A DNA stretch of 61,757 nt, from IMG/VR virus record IMGVR_UViG_3300030098_005510, positions 1 to 61,757 of that record; one strand, given 5' to 3'. This DNA comes from a virus. Its lineage: Duplodnaviria; Caudoviricetes. Below, one piece after another: positions 7,291 to 48,700 of this stretch. The notes under the pieces were generated by a model. It was not told the origin of the DNA, searched no databases, and saw only the letters and a list, made by a program, of their open reading frames with translations. Within the stretch, counting starts at the first letter, position 1; the number at the start of each line of letters is the position of its first letter. A program made the translations under genes and the position numbers.

Positions 7291-9207
7291 ATGGCATATA
7301 CAGAAAAACAAAGACTAAAACCAACAAATGTAAAATACACAAGTAAAGATTTTAGTACGATTAAAAAAGATTTAATTGAATATACTAAATCTTATTTTCC
7401 TGATACATACAAAGATTTCAACGAAACATCACCTGGTATGATGTTAATAGAGTTATCAAGTTATGTTGGTGATGTGCTTTCATATTACATAGATTATAAC
7501 TACAAAGAAAATCTGTTAGCAACCGCCACAGAAAAAAGAAACATCCGTAGACTATCAGAATTTCTTGGATATAAAACTCCAAATACAACACCATCAGTTG
7601 TTAGGTTAAAAGTAGAAACTAGTATTGGTGCTGATAGTACAACTGGTGAACCACTTTACGGAGAAGCCCCATCTTCAATAGATAGCGGTTTACAGATTGC
7701 TTCAAATATAGATTCTGAGATTCTTTTTGAGACTACTGATGAAATAGACTTCTCATCAAGTGGTTCAGGTGATCCTGCTATAAGTGCTCCAATACTTGAT
7801 AGTAATGGTGAAGCTAGTTCTTATACTTTAACAAGATTTGTTAGAGCTATATCGGCAGAGACTAAAACAAAAACATTTAATATTACAACTCCTACAAAAT
7901 TTTTAGAATTAGATTTAGGTGAAAGTAATTTAATTGAGATACTAGATTGTACAGATGGTTCTGGACAAAAATGGTATGAAGTAGATTATTTAGCACAAAC
8001 TAAGATTTTAAAAGAAACACATTATAGTGATGATTCAACTAGAACAAATGCTTACGACCAAGGTGATGCCTCAACTGAAACTTCAACAATACCTGTTCCT
8101 TATGTTGCTGAGTACATATCCTCTACAAAAAAATTCACAACTAAATTTGATGAAGATACTGAAACATACAAAGCTTGTTTTGGTAATGGACTGTTTAGAT
8201 TTAGTAACTCTGGTTCAAATGTAGATCCTGTAGAACAAGCTGGTGTAACTATTAACGGAACTAATCTTGCTGATGTACCAAGTGCTATTGGTGTAGTAGT
8301 AGGAAACAATCCAAATTTAGGAGAAACTCCATCAAATACATCATTGACATTTACCTATAGAGTTGGTGGTGGTGCGGATACAAATATACAATCCGGAGAA
8401 TTGACAACTGTTAATAACTCACCAGCAGGTGTTTCTATAACTGTAACAAATGATGAACCAAGTGTTGGTGGAACTGATGGTCAAACTGTAGACGAGATAA
8501 GAAACAATGCCTCTGCTTTCTTTGCCTCTCAACTTCGTTGTGTTACCAAAGAAGATTATCAGGCAAGAATACTGTCTCTTCCACAAAAGTTTGGTAGTAT
8601 TGCTAAATGTTATGTGGAAAGAGTAGATGGTGGAGCTTTATTAGTGTCTACTCTTTCTTATAATCAGAACAGGCAATTAGTTCAGACACCACAACTTGTT
8701 TTACAAAATATTGGTACATACCTTAATCAATTCAGAATGATAAACAATCAAGTAGGTTTTGGTTTTACATTGAATGACACATTGTTTTCTGGCTATGTAA
8801 TAAACTTTGGAGTTCGTTTTATTATCAATTATGACAGAAGATTAAATCCAACTGAAGTAAAGTTAAATGTAATTCAAGTGATAAAGAATTTCTTTGCAGT
8901 AGAAAAAATGCAGTTTAGACAATCGATTAATTTAAACGATTTACAATATAATATCTTAGGATTAGACGGTGTGATTGGTATAAAAGAATTAAAGTTATTT
9001 CAAGATGGAAATACAAATTACGCTAATGGTAGAAAGCTTTATCAATATCAAGGTAACGGTGAAATTGTGACTGATGGTGAATCGGAATATGGTTTTCAGT
9101 ATAACTTTGAAAATGCTTTGCAAGACGGAATCATAAGACCATCTGTTACACCAGCAGTATTTGAATTAAGAAACCCTAACCAAGACATATACGGAAAGGT
9201 AATATAA
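7291..9207 (+). CDS. Baseplate wedge protein, gp6/baseplate J-like
   Basis: KDFSTIKKDLIEY...DFNETSPGMMLIELSSYVGDVLSYY; FGNG; YRVGGG; GG-x-D...RCVTKEDY. Confidence 0.9.
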   Translation: MAYTEKQRLKPTNVKYTSKDFSTIKKDLIEYTKSYFPDTYKDFNETSPGMMLIELSSYVGDVLSYYIDYNYKENLLATATEKRNIRRLSEFLGYKTPNTTPSVVRLKVETSIGADSTTGEPLYGEAPSSIDSGLQIASNIDSEILFETTDEIDFSSSGSGDPAISAPILDSNGEASSYTLTRFVRAISAETKTKTFNITTPTKFLELDLGESNLIEILDCTDGSGQKWYEVDYLAQTKILKETHYSDDSTRTNAYDQGDASTETSTIPVPYVAEYISSTKKFTTKFDEDTETYKACFGNGLFRFSNSGSNVDPVEQAGVTINGTNLADVPSAIGVVVGNNPNLGETPSNTSLTFTYRVGGGADTNIQSGELTTVNNSPAGVSITVTNDEPSVGGTDGQTVDEIRNNASAFFASQLRCVTKEDYQARILSLPQKFGSIAKCYVERVDGGALLVSTLSYNQNRQLVQTPQLVLQNIGTYLNQFRMINNQVGFGFTLNDTLFSGYVINFGVRFIINYDRRLNPTEVKLNVIQVIKNFFAVEKMQFRQSINLNDLQYNILGLDGVIGIKELKLFQDGNTNYANGRKLYQYQGNGEIVTDGESEYGFQYNFENALQDGIIRPSVTPAVFELRNPNQDIYGKVI

Positions 9208-26298: not shown

Positions 26299-26940
26299 AT
26301 GAATGGTGACATCAAAATCGGTAAGTTGTTGTGTGATGAGGATATCATCACTAAAAGACAACTCAACAAAGCCTTACAAGTTCAGGTAAAAGGAGACAAA
26401 CGTACTATTGGTGAAATACTTGTAGACCAAGGTTTTTGCGATTTTGATGACATCACTAACGCATTATTAAACCACGATTCAGACACGGAGAAACACGAAG
26501 AAAAGTCAGAAAAGATACATGTTGAACCCACGCCAATAAAAGAAAAACCTAAAGAAAAATCAAAATCAAAGAAAAAAGAACCTATAGAAATAAGTGAAGA
26601 TAAAGTATTAGATACTAAATTCACATTATCTGTACAAACAATGATAGCAGCTGGAACTGGTCTAGCTTCATTGATTGGTATGTGGTATACTCTACAAGGT
26701 GAAATTGAAGAAGCAAAAGAATTACCTAAAATAGATATAGAAAAAATTTTTACGGATGAATACCCATCCAAACCTGATGGTCATAATTGGCCACGGTCAT
26801 ATGAACAATATAAGAACCAAGTTGGAGGTCTACAAGAAGATATGGATGCTGTATATGACGCACTAGATGAGTATGAAGAACTCATCAAAGAATTACAAAA
26901 AGATATCAAAGACCTTGAACGAAGGAAAAGGGATAAATAG
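26299..26940 (+). CDS. MshEN-like (PilB/GspE N-terminal) domain, TM helix and coiled coil
   Basis: Tandem 24-residue motifs KIGKLLCDEDIITKRQLNKALQVQ and TIGEILVDQGFCDFDDITNALLNH. TM segment at MIAAGTGLASLIGMWYTL. Confidence 0.7.
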   Translation: MNGDIKIGKLLCDEDIITKRQLNKALQVQVKGDKRTIGEILVDQGFCDFDDITNALLNHDSDTEKHEEKSEKIHVEPTPIKEKPKEKSKSKKKEPIEISEDKVLDTKFTLSVQTMIAAGTGLASLIGMWYTLQGEIEEAKELPKIDIEKIFTDEYPSKPDGHNWPRSYEQYKNQVGGLQEDMDAVYDALDEYEELIKELQKDIKDLERRKRDK

Positions 26941-27333: not shown

Positions 27334-27897
27334 ATGAAAAAACTACTTTTACTTTCTTTTTTACTATTTTCACTCAGTTGTGAAGATTACAGAGAGGAGT
27401 CCTCAGAACCATCTATGCAGTTATGGGTAAATGGTGACTACATAAATCCGTACACTTATTATAAACAAATAAATACTTATGGTGAGAAAAAAGTAGGTGA
27501 TGATGGCAAAATCAAAAAACTATTTGTTCTTCATTTACAAAGAGAAATAGGTAGAGTTTTACCAGAGTTAGAACACTACGCTGGTATATGGTATGATGAA
27601 GATGGTGAGGATAATAAAGCGTTAATCGATGCGGGTTTGTATCTGAACTATGGACCAACGGATACATTGGCTCACACAAGAGAACAAACGATGAACATGG
27701 AGATTATTGGTAGCTTAGACTATACAGAATTCGCACAATCAGAAATATATGTAAATGATGATAATAAAATTTCAGGAATGGCTAATGGTAAGTTTTTTAA
27801 TCCATATAGAAATGAAATGCAAATTGGGTTACTAATTTTTGAGAATATAGAAATCGGAACAGATCCGGAAGCTACATTTTATCAAGGAGATTATTGA
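27334..27897 (+). CDS. Lipoprotein
   Basis: MKKLLLLSFLLFSLSC lipobox-type signal. AGGAG RBS. Confidence 0.75.
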   Translation: MKKLLLLSFLLFSLSCEDYREESSEPSMQLWVNGDYINPYTYYKQINTYGEKKVGDDGKIKKLFVLHLQREIGRVLPELEHYAGIWYDEDGEDNKALIDAGLYLNYGPTDTLAHTREQTMNMEIIGSLDYTEFAQSEIYVNDDNKISGMANGKFFNPYRNEMQIGLLIFENIEIGTDPEATFYQGDY

Positions 27898-28163
27898 TGA
27901 GTAAATTTAATGATTTTATGTTACAATGGGGTGTGGATAAGTTTTTACATTTTATGGCAGGTGCTGCTGGATTTGCTATAACAGAGTCGTGGATAGTGTT
28001 GAGTATACTAGCATTTGGTAAAGAAATATATGATAAATACAATTCATCAAGTGGTTGGAGTAATCCTGATGCCTTTGCTACTGTGTTGGGTGGTGTTGTA
28101 GCATTTGTTGGTATTATTTGTTGGGATTTTGTTACAAGTAAATTACCGTTTGTAATTTATTGA
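27894..28163 (+). CDS. Small membrane protein (YfiM/VanZ-like)
   Basis: DKFLHF...GKEIYD...GWS-x-x-DAFATVLG pattern. Confidence 0.65.
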   Translation: MMSKFNDFMLQWGVDKFLHFMAGAAGFAITESWIVLSILAFGKEIYDKYNSSSGWSNPDAFATVLGGVVAFVGIICWDFVTSKLPFVIY

Positions 28164-28170
28164 TACACTT

Positions 28171-28186
28171 TGTAACAAGTGTAACA
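28171..28186. promoter_or_regulatory. Putative sigma54 activator (bEBP) binding site TGT-N10-ACA
   Basis: TGT AACAAGTGTA ACA, about 105-120 bp upstream of the -24/-12 box. Related half-sites at 28130 and 28161. Confidence 0.45.
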
Positions 28187-28191
28187 TTTTG

Positions 28192-28224
28192 AAAACCTCA
28201 TTTTTAAATGGGGTTTTTTATTTA
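28192..28224 (+). terminator. Intrinsic terminator
   Basis: AAAACCTCATT-ttta-AATGGGGTTTT followed by a T-rich tail. Separates the envelope operon from the pilin operon. Confidence 0.75.
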
Positions 28225-28289
28225 TACTCTAAATTCAATAATATCAACATTACAAAAAAAAATAAAAAAATTGGCAAAAACAAACACTT

Positions 28290-28305
28290 TGGTACAGTTA
28301 TTGTA
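28290..28305 (+). promoter_or_regulatory. Sigma54-type promoter (-24/-12)
   Basis: TGGTAC-AGTTA-TTGTA against consensus TGGCAC-N5-TTGCW. GG-N10 spacing is kept, but the -12 GC is GT. Confidence 0.55.
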
Positions 28306-28340
28306 CTATATAAGTAACAACAACATATAGGAGAGCTGAA

Positions 28341-28979
28341 ATGTTCAAATCAATAAAAAAATACTTTAAAGGTCGTAGTGGTCAGTCACTCGCTGAATTT
28401 GCAGTAACAACTGCTATGATGGCCACACTTGCTACCACTGCTGCACCTAAATTTTCCGGTGTTGGAGAAGGTGCTAAGGAAAAGAAAACTCTTGCTGATA
28501 TCGATAAGATAATGAAATCAGCTAACAATTTTTATAATGCTAAGGTAACATCAGAAGGTCGTGGTAGATTTCCTGGTCAGGTAAAGTACAACGAAAGTGT
28601 ACCTGATAATAATGGTGGATATGCTAACGAAGATTTACTTCTCGCGAGTATCGATGTATTCGAAACTTTTGAAAGTGAAGAAGCATCCAAATGGGCTTCT
28701 GTGTTTGGAACAGCAAATTTAGAATCACCAGCACCACAAGGTTCTTCTGTGAATGTATCAGAAGATGATGATAATGATGGTTCATTTGATCTTACAGCTG
28801 GTGCCGAAGAGTTCTTGAATGAGTTTGGTGGTAATGCTATCAAATCACCTTTCCAGGATGGTCACTATATCTACACAGTAATTGCTGGTGGTGGAAGTGG
28901 ACAACAATCCTATTCTCCAATTCTTTATATTGCAGATTTGGAAAGTCCAAAGAACTTTAACAAAAAATTACAACCTTAA
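28341..28979 (+). CDS. Type IV pilin-like protein (class III signal, G|QSLAE)
   Basis: Basic leader MFKSIKKYFKGRSG|QSLAEFAVTTAMMATLATTAAPKF with E5 and P22. AGGAG RBS. Confidence 0.8.
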   Translation: MFKSIKKYFKGRSGQSLAEFAVTTAMMATLATTAAPKFSGVGEGAKEKKTLADIDKIMKSANNFYNAKVTSEGRGRFPGQVKYNESVPDNNGGYANEDLLLASIDVFETFESEEASKWASVFGTANLESPAPQGSSVNVSEDDDNDGSFDLTAGAEEFLNEFGGNAIKSPFQDGHYIYTVIAGGGSGQQSYSPILYIADLESPKNFNKKLQP

Positions 28980-29009
28980 AATCAGACTCGAAATCGAGCG
29001 GAGAATACA

Positions 29010-29441
29010 ATGAATAACAAAGGATTCACATTAATAGAACTAATAATGGTTACTATCATTTTAGGGATTCTCGCAGCAGTAGCTATACCAAGATATGTTG
29101 GTGTAGTAGACAAAGCAGAACAGGCTGCAGAAGATGCAATAATATCTTCTGTTAAGGCTGGTTTGGAAAACTATGCTGTCGAACAACTTCTTGATAATGG
29201 TAGAAAGAGTTGGCCAACCCATCCTTTTGATGCTTTAGACCAAGTACCAGTAGGATACGATTCAACAGATGTTGATAATGCTGATACCGATGGCGAGTGG
29301 ACATTCAATACCACAACCAACAAAATCACACACCAACGAAAAGATAACACTCGTTATGCTTGGGCTTATGACAAAGGAGTTCAAACAGGTGACAATGCTG
29401 GTGTTGGTTCAATTGGTACTAGAGAAGCTATTGTAGATTAG
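29010..29441 (+). CDS. Type IVa pilin/pseudopilin
   Basis: MNNKG|FTLIELIMVTIILGILAAVAIPRY, the canonical N-methylation motif. Confidence 0.93.
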   Translation: MNNKGFTLIELIMVTIILGILAAVAIPRYVGVVDKAEQAAEDAIISSVKAGLENYAVEQLLDNGRKSWPTHPFDALDQVPVGYDSTDVDNADTDGEWTFNTTTNKITHQRKDNTRYAWAYDKGVQTGDNAGVGSIGTREAIVD

Positions 29442-29452
29442 AGGGGATACCA

Positions 29453-29899
29453 ATGAGAAACTCAAATGCTGGTTTCACATTGGCAGAGATGGTTGTTAGT
29501 ATTGCATTAGTGGGAGTAGTAATGTCATTTGCTATTCCCACTTTTAGTAATGTGACTATGGATACCCAACGACAAATTAATCTTGCCAATATGTCAATTA
29601 TAAAAGATACATTTTTGAGATATTATCAAGAGACACATATGAAAGGTAATCCTCAACTTCCTACAGAGCCAGAAAATAATTTATTAGATGGAGAATATCG
29701 TCAAATAGTATTATCTGATGGTAGAACTCCTAATCATTTGTTTAGTGGAGATTTGCCATTCAATTCCAATCAAAATGCATTTAGATATGAAATAAAATCA
29801 GATACATCCGAGCAAGGATATATAACCAAACTATTTATTATTAGTGATGTGGACGAAGATAGTCCATCATATGAGGAATATATAATCGGAGAAATCTAG
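29453..29899 (+). CDS. Type IV pilin/pseudopilin
   Basis: MRNSNAG|FTLAEMVVSIALVGVVMSFAIPTF. Confidence 0.9.
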   Translation: MRNSNAGFTLAEMVVSIALVGVVMSFAIPTFSNVTMDTQRQINLANMSIIKDTFLRYYQETHMKGNPQLPTEPENNLLDGEYRQIVLSDGRTPNHLFSGDLPFNSNQNAFRYEIKSDTSEQGYITKLFIISDVDEDSPSYEEYIIGEI

Positions 29900-30294
29900 T
29901 GAGTAAAGGCTACACTTTATTTGAACTTGTGGTGGTGATTTTATTGATTGGAATATTAACTGCTGTGGCTATTCCAAGATTTGAAAAAAGAATTGAATTA
30001 GAAGAATTAAAAGCAGAAAAACAATTTGCTCATCGATTGTGGGAAGAGTTAGAACTGTATGCCGATATTCAAAAAGAATTAACAGACATCGATGTATGGC
30101 CTGACCATCCATTATCAGTATTAGGTCGTACAAGAGGTGTCATTGTTACTCACGAGTTAGGTATACCTGATGAAGATAATGAGTGGCAATTTGATGGGAC
30201 TAAACTATATCATAGGAGAATGAATAATGAGATTTGGTATTTTGAATACAACCCTAATAATTTTTATTTGTCTGAACTTCCAATTAAGTTATAG
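29899..30294 (+). CDS. Type IV pilin/pseudopilin, paralogue of 29010..29441
   Basis: MSKG|YTLFELVVVILLIGILTAVAIPRF. Shares WP-x-HP and EW-x-F...H-x-R with the 29010 gene. Confidence 0.9.
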   Translation: MSKGYTLFELVVVILLIGILTAVAIPRFEKRIELEELKAEKQFAHRLWEELELYADIQKELTDIDVWPDHPLSVLGRTRGVIVTHELGIPDEDNEWQFDGTKLYHRRMNNEIWYFEYNPNNFYLSELPIKL

Positions 30295-30841
30295 TCAAGA
30301 TGTACAAAGAACATCTGAAATCAAAAGAGATGTTGCTTATGGACAAGATTGTGATGATACAGAATATCGTAATGAATGGGGAACACCAAATTGGAAAAAC
30401 TATGGTAAGTGGTTAAGTGAATGTGATTCAATTCGTACTGTAAATTTAGATAAAGAGTTTGCCGAAAGAGACAGAATAAAAAGACTGAAGAAAGCAAAAC
30501 AAGATAGTATTGATATGGTCGAGATGCAATCAATAGAATTAGATTTAGACGCTATGTGGGAAAATACAGTATGGGAAGAGATTCAAGAAATTGGAGAAGA
30601 AGTAATCTACGAAACAGAATACATAACAGCTGTTGCCGGTGTTCGTGGAGCAGAAGCAGAGGACGAAGCATTAGAACATTTATATTATAGAAAAAGCATG
30701 AAAGGTTTGGCAAAATTAGACATACAAAAGGCATTAGGTAAGTTAATTTTAAGAAGAGAAAAAATATCAGACGACCACAAAGATGCCAAAAAAATAGATG
30801 GTTACATATCTCAGTTAAAACTTAAATTGAAAAAAGTTTAA
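30227..30841 (+). CDS. Secreted hypothetical protein
   Basis: Signal-peptide-like N-terminus and an AVAGVRG motif. Last gene of the pilin operon. Confidence 0.65.
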   Translation: MRFGILNTTLIIFICLNFQLSYSQDVQRTSEIKRDVAYGQDCDDTEYRNEWGTPNWKNYGKWLSECDSIRTVNLDKEFAERDRIKRLKKAKQDSIDMVEMQSIELDLDAMWENTVWEEIQEIGEEVIYETEYITAVAGVRGAEAEDEALEHLYYRKSMKGLAKLDIQKALGKLILRREKISDDHKDAKKIDGYISQLKLKLKKV

Positions 30842-30865
30842 AGCATTTCTTTCGTATTTTCATTA

Positions 30866-30872
30866 TATTTAT
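30866..30872 (+). promoter_or_regulatory. Putative late promoter TATTTAT
   Basis: 7 nt before ATG 30880, with no SD sequence. Confidence 0.55.
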
Positions 30873-30879
30873 AAATGTA

Positions 30880-31242
30880 ATGGTACATCTAAAAGACATA
30901 TTTCTAGAACTCATTGAAGATAATTCTTGCATTTACTGTGGTGAAATCGTTGATGAAAATTTAAGACAATGGTTTCAAAAAGGTGGTAAAGGTGGAACAA
31001 CTTCTGGTGGTTGGGATAGGTATGGTTCTGATGGACAAAAACTTGGAAAGTGTGGTGCAGGAAAAAAAGGTGGTGCTTATGCTGCTTGTTTGAGTGCCGA
31101 AAAAGCTCGTAAGCTTGGTAAAAAGGGAAGAGCATCTTTCGTAAGAAGAAAAAGAGCAGCTCAGAAAAAGGGTGGTGATGCGAAAAAAGGTGGTGAAAAA
31201 AGAAAAGCCCAAAAGTCAATCAAGGTTAAAACTGGTGCCTAA
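30880..31242 (+). CDS. Basic Gly/Lys-rich protein, putative internal head protein
   Basis: MVHLKDIFLE N-terminal signature, CxxC, highly basic. Confidence 0.65.
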   Translation: MVHLKDIFLELIEDNSCIYCGEIVDENLRQWFQKGGKGGTTSGGWDRYGSDGQKLGKCGAGKKGGAYAACLSAEKARKLGKKGRASFVRRKRAAQKKGGDAKKGGEKRKAQKSIKVKTGA

Positions 31243-32372
31243 TGTCTTTACCTTGTGGATACAAAAGTAATACCGAGACTGTAGCTCAGTATAGAAAGAG
31301 ATGTGGTCCTAGACCATTGGGTATGATAGGTAAGGTTCATGAAGGAGATGACAAGTTAGAGTTGATAAAGTTGTATAATAAAGCTCTCAAAATGATGCCT
31401 AACTCACCTGCACAAAAAAAGATAAGAAAACAGATTTCTGCTTTACGAAAAAAATTAAAAATGGATGAGGCACCAAGAAAACCTCGAAAGAAAGGTCAAC
31501 CAGCTGGTTCAAAAAAACACTCGGATTTATACACGGATGAAAATCCAAAGGGAACAATACACGGGCTAAAGTTTGCTACCGTAAAGGATGCTCAAAAGTC
31601 AGTCAGTAAAATAAAGGGTAGTGGAAAAACCCATGCTCATAAAATACAGGCAGCTATAGCTATGGAACAAAGAGCAAGGGCAGCTGGTAAGAAAAGTGCT
31701 GCTGGTGTGTATAGAAAATTTATTAACCAAATGAAAAAAAAGACTAAACAACGAAATGAAGGTTGGTCGGACAAATATAAGAAAAGTATCGACTGTAATA
31801 ACCCAAAAGGATTTAGTCAAAAAGCACATTGTGCTGGAAGAAAAAAACGAGAGAATAAGATGAGTTTAAAGTTAGAACAGTTAGTAGGAAAGGTTATTAC
31901 AGAAGAACAATTTGATGAGGCAGCTGGTAAGAAGGATGCTTGTTATCATAAGGTTAAAGCTCGTTACGATGTTTGGCCATCAGCATATGCTAGTGGTGCT
32001 CTCGTCAAATGTCGTAAAGTAGGTGCTAAAAATTGGGGTAATAAAAGTAAGAAAGAGTCTTATGATATATGGGCAGAAGATGGTTCATTTGGATATACAA
32101 TGACAGGTTTAGTTGAAGCTGAGTATCAAGGTCGTAAAGTAAAACTTAATAAACCAATGCAAGGTGATTCTAAAAAGTTCAAAGTTTATGTTAAAAATGA
32201 TAAGGGTAATGTGGTAAAGGTAAACTTTGGACAAGGCGGTGACGCTAAAGGTGGAACTATGAGAATTAGAAAATCTAATCCTAAGGCAAGAGCCAACTTT
32301 AGAGCAAGGCATAATTGCGATAATCCAGGACCAAAATACAAGGCCAGATATTGGAGTTGTAAAAAATGGTAA
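31242..32372 (+). CDS. Multi-module basic protein (putative internal head polyprotein)
   Basis: A string of short basic modules (SDLYTDENPKGTIHGL; SIDCNNPKGFSQKAHC; DACYHKVK...PSAYASG; FRARHNC...RYWSC) separated by Glu-ending linkers. Confidence 0.65.
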   Translation: MSLPCGYKSNTETVAQYRKRCGPRPLGMIGKVHEGDDKLELIKLYNKALKMMPNSPAQKKIRKQISALRKKLKMDEAPRKPRKKGQPAGSKKHSDLYTDENPKGTIHGLKFATVKDAQKSVSKIKGSGKTHAHKIQAAIAMEQRARAAGKKSAAGVYRKFINQMKKKTKQRNEGWSDKYKKSIDCNNPKGFSQKAHCAGRKKRENKMSLKLEQLVGKVITEEQFDEAAGKKDACYHKVKARYDVWPSAYASGALVKCRKVGAKNWGNKSKKESYDIWAEDGSFGYTMTGLVEAEYQGRKVKLNKPMQGDSKKFKVYVKNDKGNVVKVNFGQGGDAKGGTMRIRKSNPKARANFRARHNCDNPGPKYKARYWSCKKW

Positions 32373-39797: not shown

Positions 39798-42700
39798 ATG
39801 CCAGAACTATATAGTCAGATATTAGACCTCAAAGAAAAAGATGTATTTCTCGAAACTGAAGTAAATGACTCACGATATTTTAGTGTCACTGGTTTACCAT
39901 CTAGGTTAAGTTATGGAAAACATCCTTTTTCAATAACATTTAATGATCCTGAAGGCCAACCACTTCTTAAAAATTTATCTAATATAGTTTTCGAATTTGT
40001 TGATTCTAATGATACTGTAATATTTTCTGATTTATTAGACATAGAAGAACTTAGTGGTGCTGGTAATGGTGTTTTATGGATAAAGAAAGATCCTCTAAGA
40101 ACAGCAGATGAAATATCTGATGGTCCTGTTTATCTTTATGTGATGGGTGAGTTGGATGGAGATGAAATACCAAATGAGTGGAAGGGGATATATAATGTAA
40201 GAAGTACATTTGTTTTTGATGCTAGAAAAGATTATCCTAATACTTCTAATCTTGTTTTAAAAAATCCATTAGGAATACAAACAAATCTAAATATATCAGA
40301 GAGTGTAGAGTTTGATACTGCTGATACTGTATTTAAAAGAAGTTTTATAAATGTGTCTCTGACCGACTTAGACACCGATGGTGGTAAAGTAGAATCTGTT
40401 GAGTTGGCATATAATGAAGAAAAAGCTCAAACAGATGATTATGAAATAATAACCACATATCCACTTACAAGTGGTTCATATGAGGTCACAGACATAACAA
40501 AAATATCTGGTCTAAATCCAATAACGAATACTACAAAGATATCAACACCTAAACAATTTAGACGAGACACATCGGTCAGATTCAGACTAAGATTTTTAAA
40601 TCCTGCTGGTGAATTTGCACAATATTTAGATGAAGATAGACAAGGTGAAATAGTAGAGGTCACTTCATCTTTTTTAACTTTCGAAAGCTCACCAACATTT
40701 ATAGAAAAAACTGACAATTTATTAACCGGTTCTTTTAGTGTTGGAGTTGATGTAGGAAAGGGATTTACATTTTCTGGTGCTAAATCAGCAGAGCTATCAA
40801 CTGTTGATTATCAAGGTTTCACAAGTGCATCTGCTGGTTCAGGTTCTGGTATACTTATGTTTTCTGGTTCTGTGAAAAGTGATGTGACAGATGATTATTC
40901 TTTAGGTGGTGTTGGATTAGAATTAGTTGCTGATAGCTCAAGTTTTTTTAGATTTAGAACAAATCCAAAAGAGTTGGATATAAGAGCTAATGCCTTTTTT
41001 ATTGGTTCAGAAACAAGTCAATTTATAAGCGGTTCAAGTGGCGATATAGAAATAAGTTCCTCTGTATTTCATTTAGATCCAGCTAATAGTTTGGTTTCAA
41101 TTAGTGGTAGTATTAATGCCACAGATGGTACTATTGGTGGTTGGAATATTGAAAATGATAAATTAGTAAATTTAGAAAATACTGTAGAGCTGAATAGCAC
41201 CACGCCTGGTTTAAATATAAAAGATGCTGGTGGTATAGATAGAGTAACGATTAAATCTGGATCTTTTTTAACAATAGGTGAAGGAACACAATACATTGGA
41301 AATAAAAGTTTCGAAGATGATACAATATCAGCTGGTAGAAACTTTGTTTCAAATATAACAAGTTGGTCTTTCTCTGAAGGCGGTGGTGTAAATATAAGTT
41401 TGACTGATAGAAGTTCTTTTCCTGACGATGAAAAAGCTGTAAGTGGTGATGTAACTTTGGATGTGGTAGTACCATCAGGTGGTAGCAACTATACCACTAA
41501 AAATAACTATGAATTAGTACAAGTTATAACGGCTTCTTTTAATGCGGGTGATACTCTTTCATTTAGTTCAGTAGCAAGATTTAGTTCATCATTTGGCGGT
41601 AAAGGAAAAGATAGAGCGTTAGGACCACAGTATTTTAGATTGGAATATAGTTCATCTACGTCAAATGGATTCAAATCGTTTTTACCAGCAAATGACTTTA
41701 CAGCTTCAAACGGCTACGGTGAATACTTTTTAGGAAGTGGTCAATATAATAGTTTTGGTGCATCAGCAGAGATGCCAGAAGCATCTGATTTTGTTCGAGT
41801 AATACTTACTGGTAGTATAAATGATGATACTGGTTACACAATTAAAAAACCTTTATTTGCGGAACGTAAAAGAAATAAAGATTTAGGCAATAAAATTTTT
41901 AGTAAAACAATTAAGGGAAGTGCTACAGCCGAGTTTCCTGAAACTGAGTTAAATTTTGATAATTTTTCTTTAAGAAGTAACACAAGAAAAGTTGAACTTA
42001 CTGAAAAGGGTTTATTAATTTATAACTCAGAAGATAGTTTCTTAAAAATGGATGCTAGTGGTATTGAGTTTAGGGGTGGTAGTGGTGTAACGACTTTTGG
42101 TCAATCAATAGCAAGAGAGACTTTTACAAACGATAGTGATGTTGCGGGTAGATTAGGAGCACCTGCATTACAAGCTTATCAATCAGATCCTGAGGATATC
42201 GGAACAACCGCATTTGATGGAAACGTAGGTGAATTTGCAAAAGGAAATCATAGACATAGAATAACATCTACGACAATAAATAATGTAATAAGTTCTTCAG
42301 TCTTGAATGTCGGCGGATTGATTTCAAGTGGTGATATTACGGCTGAAAACTTTATTGTTAAATCAACAGTTACACAAATTACACAATCATTCAGTAGTGG
42401 TTCTACAATATTCGGTGATTCTACTGATGATACTCACCAATTTACAGGATCTTTATTCGTAACAAGTTCAGCATTGACGATTGATAGTGCTGGTACTGTA
42501 AGTGGTTCATCAACCTCAACTGGTTCGTTTGGTGCTGGTAGATTTGCAGGAAAGGTTGGCATCGGCACCACAGGACCGTCTGCTGCTTTACATATATCAG
42601 AAACTAACGATGGTGGGGATACAGCAATAATCCTAAATAATAACGCAGGTGTTGGTTCTACAAATGAAACTGTGTCATTATTTTTTACACATACAGGTAT

Positions 42701-45700
42701 TGCTGGTGGTAAAATAGTATCTGGTAGGACTTTTAATTATTCTACTGTAGCTAACCGAGATAGTAATTTACAGTTTTTCACAACTCAGAATGCGACCGAC
42801 ACATTAGCTCTAACGCTTGATGCTGACCAGAATACAATATTTGCTGGGAATGCGAGTGGTTCATCAACATCAACTGCTTCATTTGGTGTTGTAAGAGCTG
42901 GTAATGGTATAAATAGATTTGGTAATTTATTAACTGATACTCATCAATTTACAGGTTCATTAGAAGTAACTGGTTCGTTTTTGGTAAATGGCGGTGGAGT
43001 CGCCACAACACCTGGTAGCGATAAAGAAGTTGTATTTAATGATGGTGGTTCATTAGGTTCTACATCTGCTTTTACTTTTGATAAAACCACAAATCATTTA
43101 TCAGCAAGTTTACCATCAACCGCATCATTTGGAAAAATATTACAAAATGGTCAAACACTTGCTTCTGTTGGTGGTGCTGATACAAATGTTCTTATAAATA
43201 CAGGAGGTGTAATATCAGGTTCAAATGAATTTGTTTATGACGACTCGACAAATAGGGTTGGCATCGGAGTAAGTCCTTCGTTTTTATTTCATGTTCAAAA
43301 ACAAGTGGATGGTGATTATGTTGGTTTCTTTAAAAATTCAGATTCGGATAATGGATTTGGTGTTGGGATTGATGCTGGTGATGATGCGAATGTAAGAGCT
43401 TTACAAATTAGAAATCATAATGGTAGTGCGGAGTCATTTATAGTAGATGGTGCTGGTAATGCTTTGTTTCCAAGAGCTAATGCAAAAATTAGTGGTTCAG
43501 CAACTTCGACAGGTTCGTTTGGTCAAGGACACTTCGATGGTAGGGTTGGGATTGGAATACAAACACCTGATATAGCTGCAACATCGTTAGACCATTTGGT
43601 TGTTGGAAAACCTGGAACTGGTGTTGCTATGAGTGGAACAAGTCATGTTGGAATTGTGATAGGTACTGGAACTTCTCATATTGGTAGGATTTCATTTCTC
43701 GATAGTCTATCAGCTTTTGGTGGCGCAATTGATTACCATCATGGTGCTGGTTCGGGTGGTGTTGATACCCTAAAATTTTACACAGACAATTATACACAGA
43801 GATTATGTTTAGAAGGTAATAAAATAAGTGGTTCATCAACCTCAACTGGTTCGTTTGCAAAATTAATAACAAAAAATGCAGATATCCAAGATTCTGCCGG
43901 AAACACCTTAATAGGATATGATCCTGGTGATATAGCAAGTGATGAGACAATCAATTTCAAAATAGGTGATGTGGATGGTGTTACTACTGGTGCTACATTA
44001 CAATTAGATGTAGTTAATACAGAAGTTATTTTAAATGACATGAAACTTATAATTCCTGAAACGATTGAACATCAGGGAGACGCGGATACAATTATAGCTT
44101 TTGCTAACGATAAAATAAGATTCAAAGCAGGAGTCGAAGGAGTCTCTCAAGACTTACTTCATCTTAGTGGTTCAAGAATAAGTGGTTCAGTTGCCTCAAC
44201 AGGTTCGTTCGGTAATTTAACTGTTGCGAAGGATTTGATGATGTCCAATGGTAAAGTTTTAAATTGGGGAACTTCTCATGGAACTCTCAGTTCAGCAATT
44301 GTTGGTAATTCAAGCACTAATGTTTTAGTATTTTATACGAATGGTTCTGAAAGAGCTAGATTTAACAGTTCAGGTAATTTAGGCATCGGCACTTCAAGTC
44401 CAGATGGGTTAGTACATGCCTTTAGTGGAAATGCATCTCAAACAGCAAATGCCGCTGCAAATCAACTTATTGCAGAAAATAACACAAATGCTGGTGTCTC
44501 TATTTTGTCAGGTACAAGTCATAGTGGTGCAATATATTTTGGAGATTCTGGTAATGCTAAAATAGGAACTATAATTTATGATCACGGAGATGAACAGTTA
44601 AGGATTGGAGTAAACGATGCTGTTATTTTAACATTAACGGATTCAAAAATAAGTGGTTCATCAACCTCAACTGGTTCATTTGGTGCTGGATTTTTTGATG
44701 GAAATGTTGGGGTAGGTATTGATCCTGATATGACAAGCTTCGATAGAGTATTGCATGTTGGTGGTACTAATACTGCTATAGTAAGATTTACTGGCACAAC
44801 CTATAGTGATACTGGTGGATATGTGGGTATGAACTTTGGTGGGGTGGATTTATTCAATCAAAGAAATAACTATTTGCGTTTTGGTACTAACAATACTGAA
44901 AGGATGAGAATTTCAAATGCTGGCAAAGTCGGCATCGGTGAATCACAACCAACTGTAGCCTTAGATGTTTCAGGTTCAGATAATCTATCGAGTAGAATTA
45001 GACTTGCTAAACATGCTAGTGGAACGAGTAAAATTTTACAACTTGGTGCTGATAGAGATACAACTGCAGTTCCATTCATAGGTGCTGAATCAAATCATGC
45101 CTTTGACATAATAACAAATAATACTCAACGAGTGCGTATAGATACTTCAGGTAATGTCGGCATCGGCACCACAAGTCCTTCTGATTACCATTCCCTAGCA
45201 AGTAATTTAGTTGTAGCTAGTTCGGGAGATACTGGTATAAGTCTTGTCTCTGGAACATCAAGTGATGGTAGAATATTTTTTGCAGATGGCACTAGCGGAG
45301 GTGATGAGTCAAGAGGTCACATTAGATATGACCATTCTGATAATAGTATGCATTTTGTTACCAATGATGCTGGTACTGCAATTAAAATAGACTCATCTGG
45401 TAATTCAGAGTTTCTGAGAGGAAACATAAGTGGTTCATCAACCTCAACGGGTTCGTTTGGAAGAGTTGATGCTCATAGCTTTCAAAATCCAAGTGGTTTA
45501 TTTTTAGGTAGCACAAACGCTGCACATGAGTTTAGTGAAATAACTTCTACCAATCATCTATTTATTGGAGCTGGTGCTTCAACAGTTCAAATGCAAAATG
45601 ATTTAATTCCTGATGGTGATGGAAGTCAAAACTTAGGTTCATCCAACAGAAATTTTAATCAAATTTTTGCTAAAGCAAAAGTTACTGGTTCATCAACTTC

Positions 45701-48700
45701 AACTGGTTCTTTTGGCTCGGTTGTAGCCGGTGGTGTTGGAGTAAATAGTTTTTCATCTAATGTTGGTGTTGGTTTAACTAGTCCTGAAACCATTCTTCAT
45801 ATCAGAGGAGCAGGTGATAAGTTTAGAGTTGATGCAAGTGATGGAACTCAAATTTTACAAATCCAAGAGTTTACAGGTAAGATAGCTGACATTATTGGAC
45901 CTGGTAATAAAGCCCTCAGAATTAATCACAATAGTAGTGGAGATGTTTTTATAGGAACAGGTGGTGGTAGTGTAATGTTAGGAAATACTGTTGCCAATCC
46001 AGCATCAGGTTTTTCTAATCAAAAAGGATTTGGCTTCAATGGTAGTACAGGACAAGTTCAGATAGCATCAAGTACAAATACTGCGGCATTGCAAATTGGA
46101 AAAAATCAAGGCACTGCTGGTGACCTCGTTATTTTTAGACACGAAAGTGTTTCGGTTGGTGCTATTGATACTGCTGGTGGAATAAGTGGTTCATCATCTT
46201 CAACTGGTTCGTTTGGTAAATTATTTATCGGTAATCAATCATTAACCAACACCGGAAATAGTGAGGTACAGTTTAGTCAAAATATTCAGTTGAGAGACGG
46301 TTTTGAATTACAAAATTCACTTGGGTTTAATATAGTTCGTCACGAGATAGATGCTTCTGACTCAGGTGAGGACTTAATTCTATTTGGTACAGACGATTCT
46401 CCAAACACCGATATTTTATTTATGACACCTGGTAATGCTGAGCTTCTATTATTAGAAAATGCTGGGAGTGCAAGATTTTATGGAGATGTCCGATTTACAA
46501 AAGCTAATGCAAAAATAAGTGGTTCATCAACCTCAACTGGTTCGTTTGGTAGAGTTGAAGCCACAACGATTACAGCACCTACTCTTGCTGGGAATACAAT
46601 AATTGATGGTAATTTAAGGACAATAGGTGATATAACTGCAGAAAACTTTATTGTGTCTTCTTCTGTAACAAGTATTACATATCAGTCTCTAAGTGGTTCA
46701 ACTGTTTTTGGTGATTCCTCTGATGACATACATCAATTTACTGGTTCGTTAATGGTATCAGCTTCTGGTCTGATAGGTATTGGCACAAACAACCCACAAA
46801 ATCCAATCCACATTAGAGGTACAGACGCTTTTATGTCATTTACTCATGAGACTAATGGTGCTCAAGCAGGTATTCTATATAGAAATACAAGTGGAACAAA
46901 TGTTGGTTTTGCTGCCTATAATTTTTCAAGTAACGTATGGCAAGTCAGAACTAATAATAATCTTGCTCTTACCCTTGACTCGGCTCAAGATGCTACCTTT
47001 GCCGGTCATATTGCTTTAGCCGCTACTAAAGGTATTTTCTTTGATGGTGGAAGTCATACTTCCATAGCTGAGTCATCTGGTGATAATTTAAGATTTCAAG
47101 TTGGTAATTCAAATGTGTTGGACATTACAACGACAAAAATAAGTGGTTCATTCACTTCAACTGGTTCATTTGGTCATTTAATAACAACTAACAACATCAT
47201 AATGAAAAATGAATTGGGTGCGCCTCATAATATGTTTGAATTTCATGATAAAAATGTTGCTATTCAAAGAGCACAAGGAGCTGATAGATCCAATACTGGA
47301 AACAGTCTATATCTTCATGCTTTTGAAGATATAATATTTACAGCACAAGGCACTACGGCAGCTAGTCAAACTGAAAGGATGCGTATAACTGAAGAAGGTG
47401 ATGTCGGCATCGGCACAGAAAGTCCTACAGCTCTTTTACATTTAGAAGCTGGTTCTGATAATGCAACTGGTGGTATTAGGTTCACTAATGACGACACAGG
47501 TGGTTCAACTGCTACCGATGGAACTGCTTTATTTTTAGAACAAAACACTACAGATTTCTTTATTAGAAATTATGAGAATGCTGGTATAAGATTAAGAACA
47601 AATGATACTGATGCTCTCTATATAAGTAGCGGTCAAAAAGTCGGTATCGGCACCACAAGTCCTGGTTCATTACTCACAATAAAAGATACTGGTGACATAT
47701 CGACCTCTACATTCATATCAGGTATAAGTGGTGATGGATTCAGAATAAAAGACAACGGTTCTGATGGTGTTAGTATGGAAATCGACAACATCACAGTTCG
47801 TAACACATTAAGAACTCATATATTCCAAAAAGATGTTGTTAGAGCTACAAATGGTATTTTATTTATATCAGATAGTGGTGTTATATCAGGCTCTACTGGA
47901 ACTACAAGTAGTGGTACAGTTACGTTTGACAATACCAAATCTGCTACTTTTTCTGATAATGATATACTGCTTTTCAAAGATGCTTCAGATGATGGTACGA
48001 TAAATGCCGTACAATTTCAAATAAATGGAAGCGTAAGTACGGCAGGAGATTTTGATACATACAATGTAGACAATGTAGTAGGTAATTTATCAAACCTGAA
48101 TACTGGCGGTACAGCAGCTAGGATAAGTGGTGGTACAGTAACAATAGACGCTTCATCACCTAATAGTCCTTTCGTAGATGTCAATGAGGCTAGTGGTTCA
48201 CCTGTAGTTAGAATGGGTAATTTAGCTGGAATTACATCTCCTCGATTTGGTGTAAATGATGAGTTTGGATTTTGGGCATCAGGCTCTGCTTATTTAGAAG
48301 GTGCTATAAATGCTAAGACAGGTAACATCGGTGGATGGGGAATAGGAGAAACTGCTATAAGTAGTTCAGGCGATAGTGTTATAATAGATGCTCTTACAAA
48401 AAGAATTACAGTTTCAGATGGTAGTAATGCTAGACTTTTCTTAGGTGAAGTTGATGGAGATGGTTCATCTTTTCCTGGCTCACCACAATTTGGAATAAAA
48501 ATATTTAATGGAAGTGGTGTCGCTGATGGAAATAGATTAGTTGAATTAGGTGAAGGTGCCAATATGATTGCGGGTTGGGATTTACTACCTGGTTCAATAA
48601 AATCAGATACCCAAGATGGAAGTGTAGCTTTGAGTTCTGTATCACAGTCATTAACGATTTGGACTGGTAGTATAAATCACGCTGAACCAAAACTTGTTTT

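What the first reader, a model, noticed from the sequence alone, without database searches (positions are those of the whole stretch)
28341..30841. Phage-borne cassette of four type IV pilins without assembly machinery
Seen: four tandem genes with class III signal peptides (G|QSLAE, G|FTLIE, G|FTLAE, G|YTLFE), followed by a secreted protein. The block is insulated by a terminator upstream and a phage-type promoter motif downstream, and lies between tail and head-protein genes. Two pilins are diverged paralogues. No prepilin peptidase, ATPase, platform protein or secretin occurs in the window. Established: such proteins are processed by host PilD and polymerised by the T4P or T2SS machine, and pili are common phage receptors. 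Inference: the phage re-coats or jams the host pilus, giving superinfection exclusion or altered adhesion, aggregation or DNA uptake in infected cells. From memory, the first pilin's GQSLAEFAVTTAMMATLATTAAPKF leader resembles marine Marinimicrobia proteins; this host hint is unverified.
Basis: partly seen in the sequence, partly recalled or inferred. Interest (0 to 1): 0.85.

Follow-up and report, generated by a model that had tools for sequence, protein, structure and literature searches.

The report
Ocean phage carries host pilus genes
A large uncultured ocean phage carries five genes for the exported parts of a pilus, copied with their on-switch from its probable host (SAR406/Marinimicrobia bacteria), so infected cells probably build or re-surface their pili with phage-made parts; single phage-encoded pilins already have laboratory precedents.

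Summary
Genes at 28341-30841 encode four proteins with prepilin-type leaders, then an exported protein. They sit in a T4-like myovirus record that CheckV rates 34% complete. The block is not a chimera and is not decaying. Eight related viral contigs keep the same gene order. Median dN/dS is 0.08-0.20 with no internal stops.

New here: all five genes have homologues in one pilus gene cluster of Marinimicrobia (SAR406) genomes. Phage p1 is up to 80% identical to the cellular gene and nests among cellular sequences in the tree. The sigma-54-type promoter came with it: 8 of 8 phage contigs and 35 of 39 host p1-like genes carry the motif. No peptidase, ATPase, platform or secretin was found in five phage records.

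Most likely the host machine assembles phage-made subunits into its pilus. Superinfection exclusion is the likeliest payoff, by analogy with P-FimU (PMC12952977). Function is untested.

The scan found this cassette before on other phage genomes, with the same reading. I class it as a new variant of a known kind.

The parts
28130..28186 (+). Three TGTWACA repeats (starts 28130, 28171, 28180). Candidate binding sites for a sigma-54 activator (enhancer).
   Evidence: sites at -211, -170 and -161 from the ATG. Similar repeats lie upstream of p1 in the other phage contigs and in host L018 (-178, -156, -137). Sequence read. Their function is inferred.
28191..28224 (+). Intrinsic-terminator-like hairpin plus T-run. 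It closes the upstream envelope operon.
   Evidence: 12-pair stem, 4-nt loop; hairpin and T-run kept in 8 of 8 phage contigs, with differing stem sequences.
28290..28305 (+). Sigma-54-type promoter, TGGTAC-N5-TTGTA. It is homologous in position to the host p1 promoters.
   Evidence: one of only 2 matches in the window, against 1.09 expected; present at -48 to -82 in 8 of 8 phage contigs and in 35 of 39 host p1-like genes..
28341..28979 (+). p1: non-canonical prepilin (G|QSLAEF). It is a homologue of the last gene in the host's tandem array of p1-type pilins.
29010..29441 (+). p2: canonical type IV prepilin (G|FTLIE), GspG-like in its N-terminal helix.
   Evidence: Host homologues are 52-74% identical and lie directly after host p1.
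29453..29899 (+). p3: prepilin (G|FTLAE), a homologue of the third host pilin gene.
   Evidence: Host homologues are 30-42% identical.
29899..30294 (+). p4: prepilin (G|YTLFE), a diverged member of the p2 type.
   Evidence: Its best host matches are p2-type genes at about 33%.
30227..30841 (+). p5: exported protein that overlaps the end of p4 by 68 nt. Its C-terminal domain (about residues 100-202) is homologous to a small secreted protein encoded at the far end of the host pilus cluster.
   Evidence: 50% identity, E 3e-32.
30866..30873 (+). TATTTATA motif in front of the next phage gene (30880). It marks the downstream edge of the cassette.
   Evidence: Copies also lie just before the genes at 4233 and 22012. 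Promoter function is not shown.
26299..26940 (+). Linked gene outside the finding: a membrane-anchored protein with an MshE-type c-di-GMP-binding motif.
   Evidence: NF053729, 41.1 bits against a cut-off of 38. It is kept upstream of the cassette in L001, L003, L005, L007 and L010. dN/dS is 0.08. It is only 28% identical to the host ATPase N-terminus.

Best explanation
This is a host-derived kit of exported pilus parts carried by a large T4-like marine myovirus whose probable host is Marinimicrobia (SAR406).

The kit holds a p1-type pilin, two p2-type pilins (p2, p4), a p3-type pilin and a small secreted accessory protein (p5). Its control region holds activator-site-like repeats, an A-rich tract and a sigma-54-type promoter.

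Proposed mechanism, with its status:
1. In an infected cell the host RNA polymerase with sigma-54, and the activator encoded in the host pilus cluster, transcribe the cassette (inferred).
2. The host prepilin peptidase cleaves the leaders, and the host ATPase, platform and secretin machine polymerises the phage subunits into the cell's own pilus (inferred).
3. The parts of p1 needed for assembly are 91-100% identical to the host's over residues 21-80, while the central region differs. The result would therefore be a working pilus with a changed surface or tip (the identity pattern is shown; the consequence is inferred).
4. The likeliest payoff is blocking adsorption of competing or sibling phages that land on this pilus (by analogy only).
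For: Phage identity. Baseplate wedge, gp55-like late sigma, primase and SbcC all lie on one strand. The record is a virus record.

Host origin.
- p1 relatives occur at 42 loci, mostly in Marinimicrobia MAGs and SAGs.
- In 17 loci (L017-L033), p1 (49-80% identity), p2 (52-74%) and p3 (29-42%) homologues all occur with no other phage gene in up to 10-kb flanks. They stand in the phage order p1-p2-p3 in 15. L026 and L031 differ: p3 lies upstream, or p2 and p3 lie on the opposite strand.
- In SAG locus L018 these genes sit inside a cluster. It holds prepilin peptidase, MshEN-T2SSE ATPase, sigma-54 activator, T2SSF platform, then p1-p2-p3 and further pilins, then an AAA_22 protein, a PilO-like protein and a secretin.
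- The p5 homologue is the last gene of a CHASE2-cyclase / FG-GAP / TPR / p5h unit. Its first gene overlaps the secretin gene's end by 8 nt. TPR-p5h adjacency holds in 9 of 9 loci. p5h was found in 25 of 301 genomes sampled from the phylum.

Tree. Seven phage p1 sequences form a clade (100/95) inside an 11-row clade with 4 cellular sequences (100/96). That clade sits inside a 21-row clade with 14 cellular sequences (95/88).

Promoter. The motif is present in 8 of 8 phage contigs and 35 of 39 host p1-like genes, against 2 matches in the whole window.

Selection. Median dN/dS is 0.20 for p1, 0.08 for p2, 0.12 for p3, 0.19 for p4 and 0.18 for p5. There are no internal stops in 6-9 orthologues.

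Assembly compatibility. Phage-versus-host identity of p1 is 1.00, 0.95 and 0.91 in residues 21-80, and 0.97 in residues 161-180. It is only 0.44-0.61 in residues 81-140.

No machine genes were found in five phage records.

Precedents.
- Prophage FimU is incorporated into the pilus and blocks tip-binding phages. PilA-like genes also occur in virulent phages (PMC12952977, abstract and sections 17-18).
- Pilins of the SNJ2 provirus hijack the host machinery (PMC12426801, abstract).
Against: - No step after DNA is shown: not transcription from this promoter, nor cleavage, nor incorporation, nor any effect on phage adsorption.
- The phage promoter reads TGGTAC...TTGTA. It lacks the C after GG and the GC of the -12 element in the consensus as I recall it, so its strength is unknown.
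- p1 fails every pilin HMM. Its fold match is only Z 5.3.
- All phage records are fragments (29-52% complete). A phage-encoded machine or activator elsewhere in the genome is therefore not excluded.
- No phage hallmark gene was found in 5 Marinimicrobia genomes searched. The host link rests on gene sharing alone.
- It is unknown whether any phage uses this pilus as a receptor.
Confidence: 0.6

Rival explanations
1. Pilus maintenance or boost (the auxiliary-gene logic). The phage supplies subunits so that the infected cell keeps or increases a working pilus while host expression declines. That pilus would serve adhesion to particles, aggregation or DNA uptake. The benefit would be to phage yield or spread, not exclusion.
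For: - The kit covers fibre-type and accessory parts, not one receptor component.
- The host-type control region is kept.
- The assembly-relevant parts of p1 are near-identical to the host's.
- SNJ2-encoded pili promote host biofilm formation and motility (PMC12426801, abstract).
Against: - The central region of p1 differs from the nearest host allele as much as host alleles differ from each other.
- Two distinct p1 lineages exist among the phages. Both points fit surface diversification better than simple replenishment.
- The function of this pilus in Marinimicrobia is unknown.
Confidence: 0.2
2. Dominant-negative jamming. The phage pilins enter the host machine but poison elongation or cap the fibre. 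The cell then loses its pili and can no longer be superinfected through them.
For: - Overexpression of a single minor pilin can disrupt assembly, and truncated PilA-like phage genes exist (PMC12952977, sections 17-18).
- p4 is a strongly diverged p2-type pilin with no close host counterpart; its best host hits are about 33%.
- A linked MshEN-motif membrane protein could interfere with c-di-GMP control of the motor.
Against: - Purifying selection acts on full-length globular domains of all four pilins.
- The assembly surfaces of p1 are near-identical to the host's. A blocker would not need four intact pilins plus p5.
Confidence: 0.12
3. Parts of the virion or of an entry or exit device. The pilin-like proteins would be phage structural or egress components, for example a pseudopilus piston, rather than additions to the host pilus.
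For: - The cassette lies after the tail and baseplate genes and an envelope-targeted operon.
- A TATTTATA motif shared with some structural genes lies nearby.
Against: - All five genes and the promoter are copies from a cellular pilus cluster.
- The upstream TATTTATA copy is not conserved in relatives.
- No PHROG structural family matches. The PHROG pilin family is filed under morons.
Confidence: 0.04
4. Assembly chimera, or host DNA mis-joined into a viral contig.
For: - p1 is up to 80% identical to cellular genes.
- Logan contigs of two runs break at 28289-28322 with alternative flanks.
Against: - Eight other viral contigs from different samples carry the same block. L001, L003 and L007 have the same upstream genes, and L002 and L007 the same downstream genes.
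- Runs X4 and X5 cover 30 of 30 bins and bridge the downstream junction without a difference.
- The phage copies form their own clade.
Confidence: 0.01

Closest known systems
P-FimU and P-PilA: pilus subunits encoded by Pseudomonas aeruginosa F10-like prophages, by Xylella prophages and by some virulent phages (Sztanko et al., Cell Rep 2026, PMC12952977; abstract and sections 17-18 read)
   Same: - A phage carries a copy of a host type IV pilus subunit but no machine.
- The copy keeps the assembly-competent parts and differs on the exposed parts.
- In that work the promoter regions are conserved among phage copies; here the promoter is conserved too.
- The proposed payoff is blocking pilus-binding phages.
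   Different: - Here there are five genes of four kinds (p1 type, two p2 type, p3 type, and a secreted accessory protein), not one.
- The carrier looks like a large T4-like lytic myovirus of an uncultured marine phylum.
- The control region is a sigma-54-type promoter with activator-like sites shared with the host.
- Nothing has been tested at the bench.
SNJ2 provirus pilins PilA1/PilA2 of Natrinema sp. J7 (Xiang et al., Cell Rep 2025, PMC12426801; abstract read)
   Same: - Two tandem virus-encoded type IV pilins use the host secretion machinery to form filaments.
- More than one pilin gene is carried per virus.
   Different: - That system is an archaeal temperate virus.
[quoted passage not shown]
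- No accessory secreted protein or sigma-54 control is described in the abstract.
Phage inhibitors of type IV pili, such as Aqs1 of phage DMS3 (PMC13436744; search listing and abstract start only)
   Same: A phage alters the host type IV pilus, with exclusion of other pilus-dependent phages as the payoff.
   Different: Those are small inhibitors of the machinery, not structural subunits copied from the host.
MSHA-type type IV pilus clusters (gene names recalled, not from a call)
   Same: The host cluster has an ATPase with an MshEN domain, an AAA_22 protein, a PilO-like protein, a secretin and several pilins in one cluster.
   Different: - The host cluster also holds a sigma-54 activator between the ATPase and the platform.
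- It has tandem arrays of p1-type pilins with a G|Q/N-SLAEF leader.
- It has a CHASE2-cyclase / FG-GAP / TPR / p5h tail.
- Membership of the MSH type was not tested.

Membership tests
Type IV pilin / pseudopilin (prepilin with class III signal peptide) | N-terminal cleavage/methylation motif recognised by PF07963 / TIGR02532 | tested here: met
   p2, p3 and p4 score 30.7, 29.1 and 21.5 bits against the PF07963 cut-off of 21.2. Against TIGR02532 they score 31.8, 24.6 and 21.9 bits, cut-off 16.3. p4 only just passes Pfam.
Type IV pilin / pseudopilin (p1 only) | The same motif recognised by a pilin HMM | tested here: not met
   p1 matches no Pfam, PHROG or NCBIfam family at E<=0.1 or 0.01. By eye it keeps Gly-1, Glu+5 and a 20-residue hydrophobic stretch, with Gln or Asn at +1. 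Some sources name relatives PilE, PulG or 'GspG C-terminal domain'.
Type IV pilin / pseudopilin (p1 only) | Pilin fold: a long N-terminal helix packed on a beta-sheet | tested here: inconclusive
   The AF2 model has pLDDT 77 and shows helices 16-33 and 38-72 plus C-terminal strands. In the VIA-align wide search the top 17 rows are pilins or pseudopilins, but Z is only 5.3-3.9, below the tool's caution line of 8. Foldseek gave no match at E<=0.001.
Type IV pilin / pseudopilin | Cleavage by a prepilin peptidase and polymerisation by an ATPase/platform machine | not testable with these tools
   The host cluster encodes A24 peptidase, T2SSE, T2SSF and a secretin N-domain protein. Processing itself needs a bench test.
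Phage-encoded pilus component (P-FimU / P-PilA kind) | Encoded in a phage genome that lacks the pilus machine | tested here: met
   PF01478, PF00437, PF00482 and PF00263 were not found over cut-off in G000-G004/G005. The one sub-cut-off T2SSE hit and the weak PF00158 hit fall in an AAA_5/MoxR-like ORF. Caveat: all records are 24-52% complete.
Phage-encoded pilus component (P-FimU / P-PilA kind) | Homologous to a pilus subunit of the host | tested here: met
   Identity to cellular loci reaches 80% for p1, 74% for p2, 42% for p3 and 50% for the p5 domain. The host assignment itself is inferred from this sharing.
Phage-encoded pilus component (P-FimU / P-PilA kind) | Incorporated into the host pilus and protective against pilus-binding phages | not testable with these tools
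   No cultured host or phage exists.
Sigma-54-dependent promoter | GG at -24 and GC at -12 with fixed spacing (consensus TGGCAC-N5-TTGCW, recalled) | tested here: inconclusive
   The phage reads TGGTAC-N5-TTGTA. GG and the spacing are kept, but -12 reads GT. Host copies are mostly TGGCAC/T-N5-TTGCT, and some host copies also read TTGTA (L018, L030, L033).
Sigma-54-dependent promoter | A cognate activator (PF00158 with HTH) is available | tested here: met
   For the host: L018:7120-8577 scores 221 bits on PF00158 and carries HTH_8. The phage records have none. Their PF00158 hit is an AAA_5 protein, in which I saw no GAFTGA loop (motif recalled) by reading.
Tad/Flp-type pilin or TadE-like pseudopilin (considered for p1 because of G|xxxxEF; motif recalled) | Match to the Flp/TadE family models | tested here: not met
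   No Pfam family matches at E<=0.1. The gene also sits in a T4P/T2SS-type cluster with a PilD-like A24 peptidase.

The most novel reading that the evidence does not exclude
The phage does not merely swap one receptor component. It carries a deliberately assembled kit of every small exported part: a p1-type pilin, two p2-type pilins (p2, p4), a p3-type pilin, and the secreted accessory protein taken from about 21 kb further along the host cluster. It carries the host's sigma-54 switch as well. A linked gene encodes a c-di-GMP-motif membrane protein. Together these let the infected cell build a phage-specified pilus on the host motor, a 'virocell pilus'. Its purpose would go beyond exclusion: for example particle attachment, aggregation with uninfected hosts, or DNA uptake to feed replication of a genome of roughly 180 kb in nutrient-poor water.
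Probability: 0.2. Interest if true: 0.75.

Novelty: new variant of a known kind. Interest (0 to 1): 0.55.

Why it matters
1. It gives a gene-sharing host link (SAR406/Marinimicrobia) for an abundant uncultured ocean phage group. p1 has 3409 relatives and p5 has 5377 in the 5.8-billion-protein collection, many from Tara and other marine sets. My searches of the held paper library found no described phage of this phylum and no paper joining Marinimicrobia, phage and pilin in this sense.

2. It extends the newly described 'phage replaces a pilus part' strategy in three ways: from single genes in prophages of cultured pathogens to a five-gene kit, to a lytic-type marine phage, and to capture of the host control region.

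3. It points to the pilus as a battleground in SAR406. Host genomes carry tandem arrays of 2-5 p1-type genes and up to 15 p2-type pilin genes. Most p1-type genes have their own sigma-54 promoter.

Tried and rejected
Searches and models that gave nothing usable:
- Foldseek of the p1 model against the PDB gave no match at E<=0.001.
- Pfam, PHROGs and NCBIfam gave no family for p1 or p5.
- The ESM Atlas gave no usable hit for p5.
- The AlphaFold2 model of p5 was poor (pLDDT 52), so I made no fold search with it.
- tblastn of p1 against 50,697 phage records gave no match.
- p2 gave only three weak matches, 27-31% identity: two Vibrio phages and one gut phage contig.
- The phage is far from isolates. 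Its best baseplate match is 34.5% identical, to Microcystis phage Mel-JY01.

Complex prediction. I ran mature p2 + p3 + p4 with p5 as partner. The verdict was 'no answer', score 0.00, and the controls were not run. This is no evidence either way.

Host link through infected single cells. The phage baseplate protein was not found in 5 Marinimicrobia genomes, four of them SAGs or MAGs that carry the pilus locus. This shows nothing about absence.

Origin of the MshEN-motif protein. It is only 28% identical over 47 residues (E 0.008) to the host ATPase N-terminus. A recent capture from that gene is not supported.

A phage-encoded sigma-54 activator. A PF00158 hit over cut-off appeared in G001-G003. 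It is an AAA_5/MoxR-like ATPase lying next to a gene whose product, by my reading, resembles a vWA domain; Pfam gave no family for that protein. I rejected it as an activator.

T4 late-promoter reading of TATTTATA. The + strand motif is the reverse complement of TATAAATA (consensus recalled). It is only weakly enriched, and the copy at 28219 is not conserved. I left it as a boundary mark only.

RNA. Two metatranscriptome runs of one study hold Logan contigs on parts of p1, p2 and p3.
- Exact pieces lie at 28722-28950, 29289-29368 and 29339-29431 in X20.
- Pieces bridging p1/p2 (28797-29079) and p2/p3 (29133-29502) occur in X19, with 8 and 10 differences.
- High-depth pieces on the conserved N-terminus carry 4-8 differences and may come from host genes.
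- The tool warns that DNA can be present in such libraries and that contigs show neither level nor strand. I count this as a weak hint of transcription at most.
- The flanks 27800-28150 and 30842-31300 had no cover in the RNA runs.

Upstream junction. Among the rows shown, no single Logan contig crosses 28312-28341 (142 rows were not shown). Loose ends at 28289 and 28322 in X4 and X5 point to alternative flanks there. The junction is bridged by the IMG/VR contigs L001, L003 and L007.

First p5 result overturned. My first tblastn found no p5 homologue in host loci because the flanks were only 10 kb. The phylum search overturned that.

Supplementary tables of PMC12952977 (Table S3, phage PilA-like groups) could not be seen. 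They may list marine phages.


Full report
WHAT IS THERE

The window is a whole IMG/VR virus record of 61,757 bases. It is linear, and CheckV rates it 34% complete. Of the 49 ORFs of at least 110 aa, the 6 on the minus strand all lie inside larger plus-strand ORFs. GC is about 0.28-0.41.

PHROGs identify these genes:
- T4-type baseplate wedge subunits (6765-7274, 7291-9207)
- a gp55-like late sigma factor (3477-4205)
- a transglycosylase
- a RuvC-like resolvase
- a primase
- an SbcC-like protein

The nearest isolates are distant. The best baseplate match is 34.5% identical, to Microcystis phage Mel-JY01.

The five ORFs of the finding lie exactly as described.
- p2, p3 and p4 pass Pfam N_methyl and TIGR02532 over their cut-offs.
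- p1 has the leader ...GRSG|QSLAEF and matches no family model.
- The p1 AlphaFold2 model (pLDDT 77) finds only pilins and pseudopilins in the top 17 rows of the VIA-align wide search, at modest Z of 5.3-3.9. Foldseek found nothing.
- p2 and p4 are paralogues, 33-35% identical.
- p5 starts 68 nt inside p4 and has a hydrophobic N-terminal segment.

NOT A CHIMERA, NOT DECAYING

A scan of viral contigs found 13 loci.
- Eight of them (L001-L005, L007, L009, L010) carry p1-p2-p3-p4 in the same order. p5 follows in all eight, but only its first 57 residues fit on L001, where the contig ends.
- L001, L003 and L007 share the upstream genes. L002 and L007 share downstream genes.
- L005 has different upstream neighbours, so the block moves as a unit.

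Two marine metagenome runs not flagged as the possible source (X4, X5; two studies) cover 30 of 30 bins. They bridge the p5/next-gene junction without a difference.

Median pairwise dN/dS is 0.20 (p1, 9 sequences), 0.08 (p2, 9), 0.12 (p3, 8), 0.19 (p4, 9) and 0.18 (p5, 6). There are no internal stops.

WHERE IT CAME FROM

p1 has 3409 relatives in the large protein collection and 288 clusters at 50% identity. Named members include a Marinimicrobia MAG protein and proteins that sources call PilE or PulG.

A scan of one genome per species found 42 loci, mostly in Marinimicrobia/Neomarinimicrobiota MAGs and single-cell genomes. A few MAGs labelled otherwise (Methanobacteriota, Balneolaceae, Gammaproteobacteria, Nitrospinaceae, Dehalococcoidia) carry the same kind of locus. 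I take those as probable binning errors; this is an inference.

In 17 loci (L017-L033), homologues of p1 (49-80% identity), p2 (52-74%) and p3 (29-42%) all occur. They stand in the phage order p1-p2-p3 in 15 of the 17. L026 and L031 differ: p3 lies upstream, or p2 and p3 lie on the opposite strand. None of the other 39 window proteins used as queries matches in the flanks of up to 10 kb.

In the single-cell contig behind L018 the genes sit in a pilus cluster, in this order:
- response regulator
- A24 prepilin peptidase
- MshEN-T2SSE ATPase
- sigma-54 activator
- T2SSF platform
- p1, p2, p3
- three further ORFs, two of them passing N_methyl
- a 550-aa protein
- an AAA_22 protein
- a PilO-like protein
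- a T2SSB-like protein
- a secretin

The secretin gene's end overlaps by 8 nt a CHASE2-cyclase gene. That gene is followed by an FG-GAP protein, a TPR protein and a 148-aa secreted protein. The 148-aa protein is 50% identical (E 3e-32) to the C-terminal domain of p5. TPR-p5h adjacency holds in 9 of 9 loci examined. The p5 domain was found in 25 of 301 genomes sampled from the phylum.

So all five phage genes trace to one host cluster, but they are not a contiguous copy:
- p1-p3 are adjacent in the host.
- p4 is a diverged p2-type gene, with best host hits of about 33%.
- p5 lies about 21-31 kb downstream of p1 in three host contigs (coordinates).

In the careful maximum-likelihood tree of 80 p1-type sequences:
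- The seven closest phage copies form a clade (ultrafast bootstrap 100 / SH-aLRT 95).
- That clade lies inside an 11-row clade with four cellular sequences (100/96), which lies inside a 21-row clade with 14 cellular sequences (95/88).
- The L009/L010 phage pair lies apart (100/100).
- None of 200 bootstrap trees makes the phages one group.

This means two captures or an allele replacement. The tree is rooted at the midpoint only. I infer the direction host-to-phage because the full machine and the gene arrays are cellular.

THE SWITCH CAME TOO

TGGTAC-N5-TTGTA lies at 28290-28305, 36-51 nt before the p1 start codon. The degenerate pattern has only 2 matches in the whole window, against 1.09 expected by chance. 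Within 230 nt upstream of p1-type genes it occurs in 8 of 8 phage contigs and in 35 of 39 host genes. Host copies are mostly TGGCAC/T-N5-TTGCT, and some read TTGTA.

TGTWACA repeats lie further upstream in the phages and in L018.

Between the repeats and the promoter all 8 phage contigs keep a hairpin plus T-run whose stem letters differ. This is a conserved terminator that closes the upstream operon.

The phage records hold no activator. The PF00158 hit in three relatives is an AAA_5/MoxR-like ATPase.

HOW IT MOST LIKELY WORKS

Phage and nearest-host p1 are identical or nearly so in residues 21-80 (1.00, 0.95, 0.91), which hold the N-terminal helix. They are also close in residues 161-180 (0.97). 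In residues 81-140 identity drops to 0.44-0.61, a region that also varies among host alleles.

Host genomes carry tandem arrays of 2-5 p1-type genes, most with their own sigma-54 promoter. They also carry up to 15 p2-type genes.

This is the pattern expected of exchangeable fibre subunits under diversifying pressure. I therefore read the cassette as subunits that the host peptidase and motor accept, giving a pilus with a phage-specified surface.

The payoff cannot be tested here. By analogy with prophage FimU, exclusion of pilus-binding phages is the leading candidate. FimU is incorporated into the pilus without loss of function and blocks tip-binding phages. The same paper notes PilA-like genes in virulent phages (PMC12952977, abstract and sections 17-18). 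Pilus maintenance or gain (compare the SNJ2 pilins, PMC12426801, abstract) and jamming are the main rivals.

Shown here:
- homology
- synteny
- promoter sharing
- purifying selection
- absence of machine genes in five fragments

Inferred:
- transcription
- cleavage
- incorporation
- effect on the cell or on other phages

LIMITS

- All phage records are fragments. G001 reaches about 65 kb upstream of p2, and G003 reaches about 91 kb downstream (coordinates). If the two are collinear, most of a genome of roughly 180 kb was searched, but collinearity was not checked.
- PilM, PilN and PilP families were not searched.
- Evidence of expression is weak: contigs from one study's RNA libraries.
- The host link rests on shared genes only, and a search for the phage in five host genomes found nothing.

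COMPARISON AND NOVELTY

Phage-encoded pilins that use the host machine are in print (the two papers above).

This case differs in four ways:
- the size and make-up of the kit: four pilins of three types plus an accessory protein fetched from the other end of the cluster
- the captured sigma-54 control region
- the lytic-type T4-like marine carrier
- the uncultured host phylum

My searches of the held library found no paper describing it (and passages of PMC9948707). Supplementary tables were closed.

The scan itself has met the same cassette on other phage genomes, and follow-up agents reached the same reading. I reached the host-origin and promoter results before reading those notes. Their statement that all five genes are host copies made me search for p5 in the phylum, and that search corrected my earlier view that p5 was phage-specific.

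VERDICT

This is a new variant of a known kind, with interest 0.55.

Noticed in passing
window 26299-26940: A membrane-anchored protein whose N-terminus passes NCBIfam NF053729 (MshE-related c-di-GMP-binding motif, 41.1 bits against a cut-off of 38). It is kept near the pilin cassette in L001, L003, L005, L007 and L010, with dN/dS 0.08. It is only 28% identical to the host pilus ATPase N-terminus. It may tie the phage to c-di-GMP control of the pilus motor.
   Followed up: partly
L017, L019, L023, L026, L028, L033 (host loci), upstream of host p1: Host genomes carry tandem arrays of 2-5 p1-type pilin genes. Most have their own sigma-54-type promoter. Some neighbouring copies have identical proteins (for example L017 7993 and 9010; L026 2143 and 3076).
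   Followed up: partly
L038 11659-19622 and L043 11647-17039: These loci hold arrays of 15 and 11 canonical G|FTLIE-type pilin-like genes in a row, most of them p2-type, in two large cellular contigs (583 kb and 220 kb).
   Followed up: no
L070 196-10387 (host), also L068, L069, L071: A conserved unit of CHASE2-adenylate/guanylate cyclase, FG-GAP repeat protein, TPR protein and a small secreted protein (the p5 homologue). It directly follows the pilus secretin gene. Its role in the pilus is unknown.
   Followed up: partly
window 28289-28322: Logan contigs of two independent metagenome runs end here, with alternative flanking sequence on both sides. The spot is right at the sigma-54-type promoter. 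It may be a recombination boundary of the cassette.
   Followed up: no
window 30880, 32366, 33109 (gene starts): Three downstream proteins begin with similar decapeptides (MVHLKDIFLE, MVKLKDLLTE, MIKLKDLLRE). Another first-reader note reads these as a capsid-targeting sequence. I did not test it.
   Followed up: no
window 39798-51752 and 51752-58453: Two giant ORFs of 3984 and 2233 aa follow the DNA-metabolism genes. The last ORF of the window (59703-) matches tail-spike and virion-protein PHROGs.
   Followed up: no
L059 123-2319 (relative G003; also G001, G002): An AAA_5/MoxR-like ATPase lies next to a gene whose product, by eye, resembles a vWA domain (Pfam gave no family). The pair sits a few kb downstream of the cassette in three relatives. 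No counterpart was found in the window.
   Followed up: partly
L009 4360-4764 and L010 4391-4750: In two relatives p5 is short (134 and 119 aa), like the 148-aa host protein. The window's lineage has an extra Cys-containing segment of about 70 residues after the signal peptide.
   Followed up: partly
L022, L033, L050, L053, L058: MAGs labelled Balneolaceae, Methanobacteriota, Nitrospinaceae, Gammaproteobacteria and Dehalococcoidia carry the same pilin loci. L058 looks like a phage fragment (p1 88%, p3 62%, p5 50%). These are probably binning errors.
   Followed up: no
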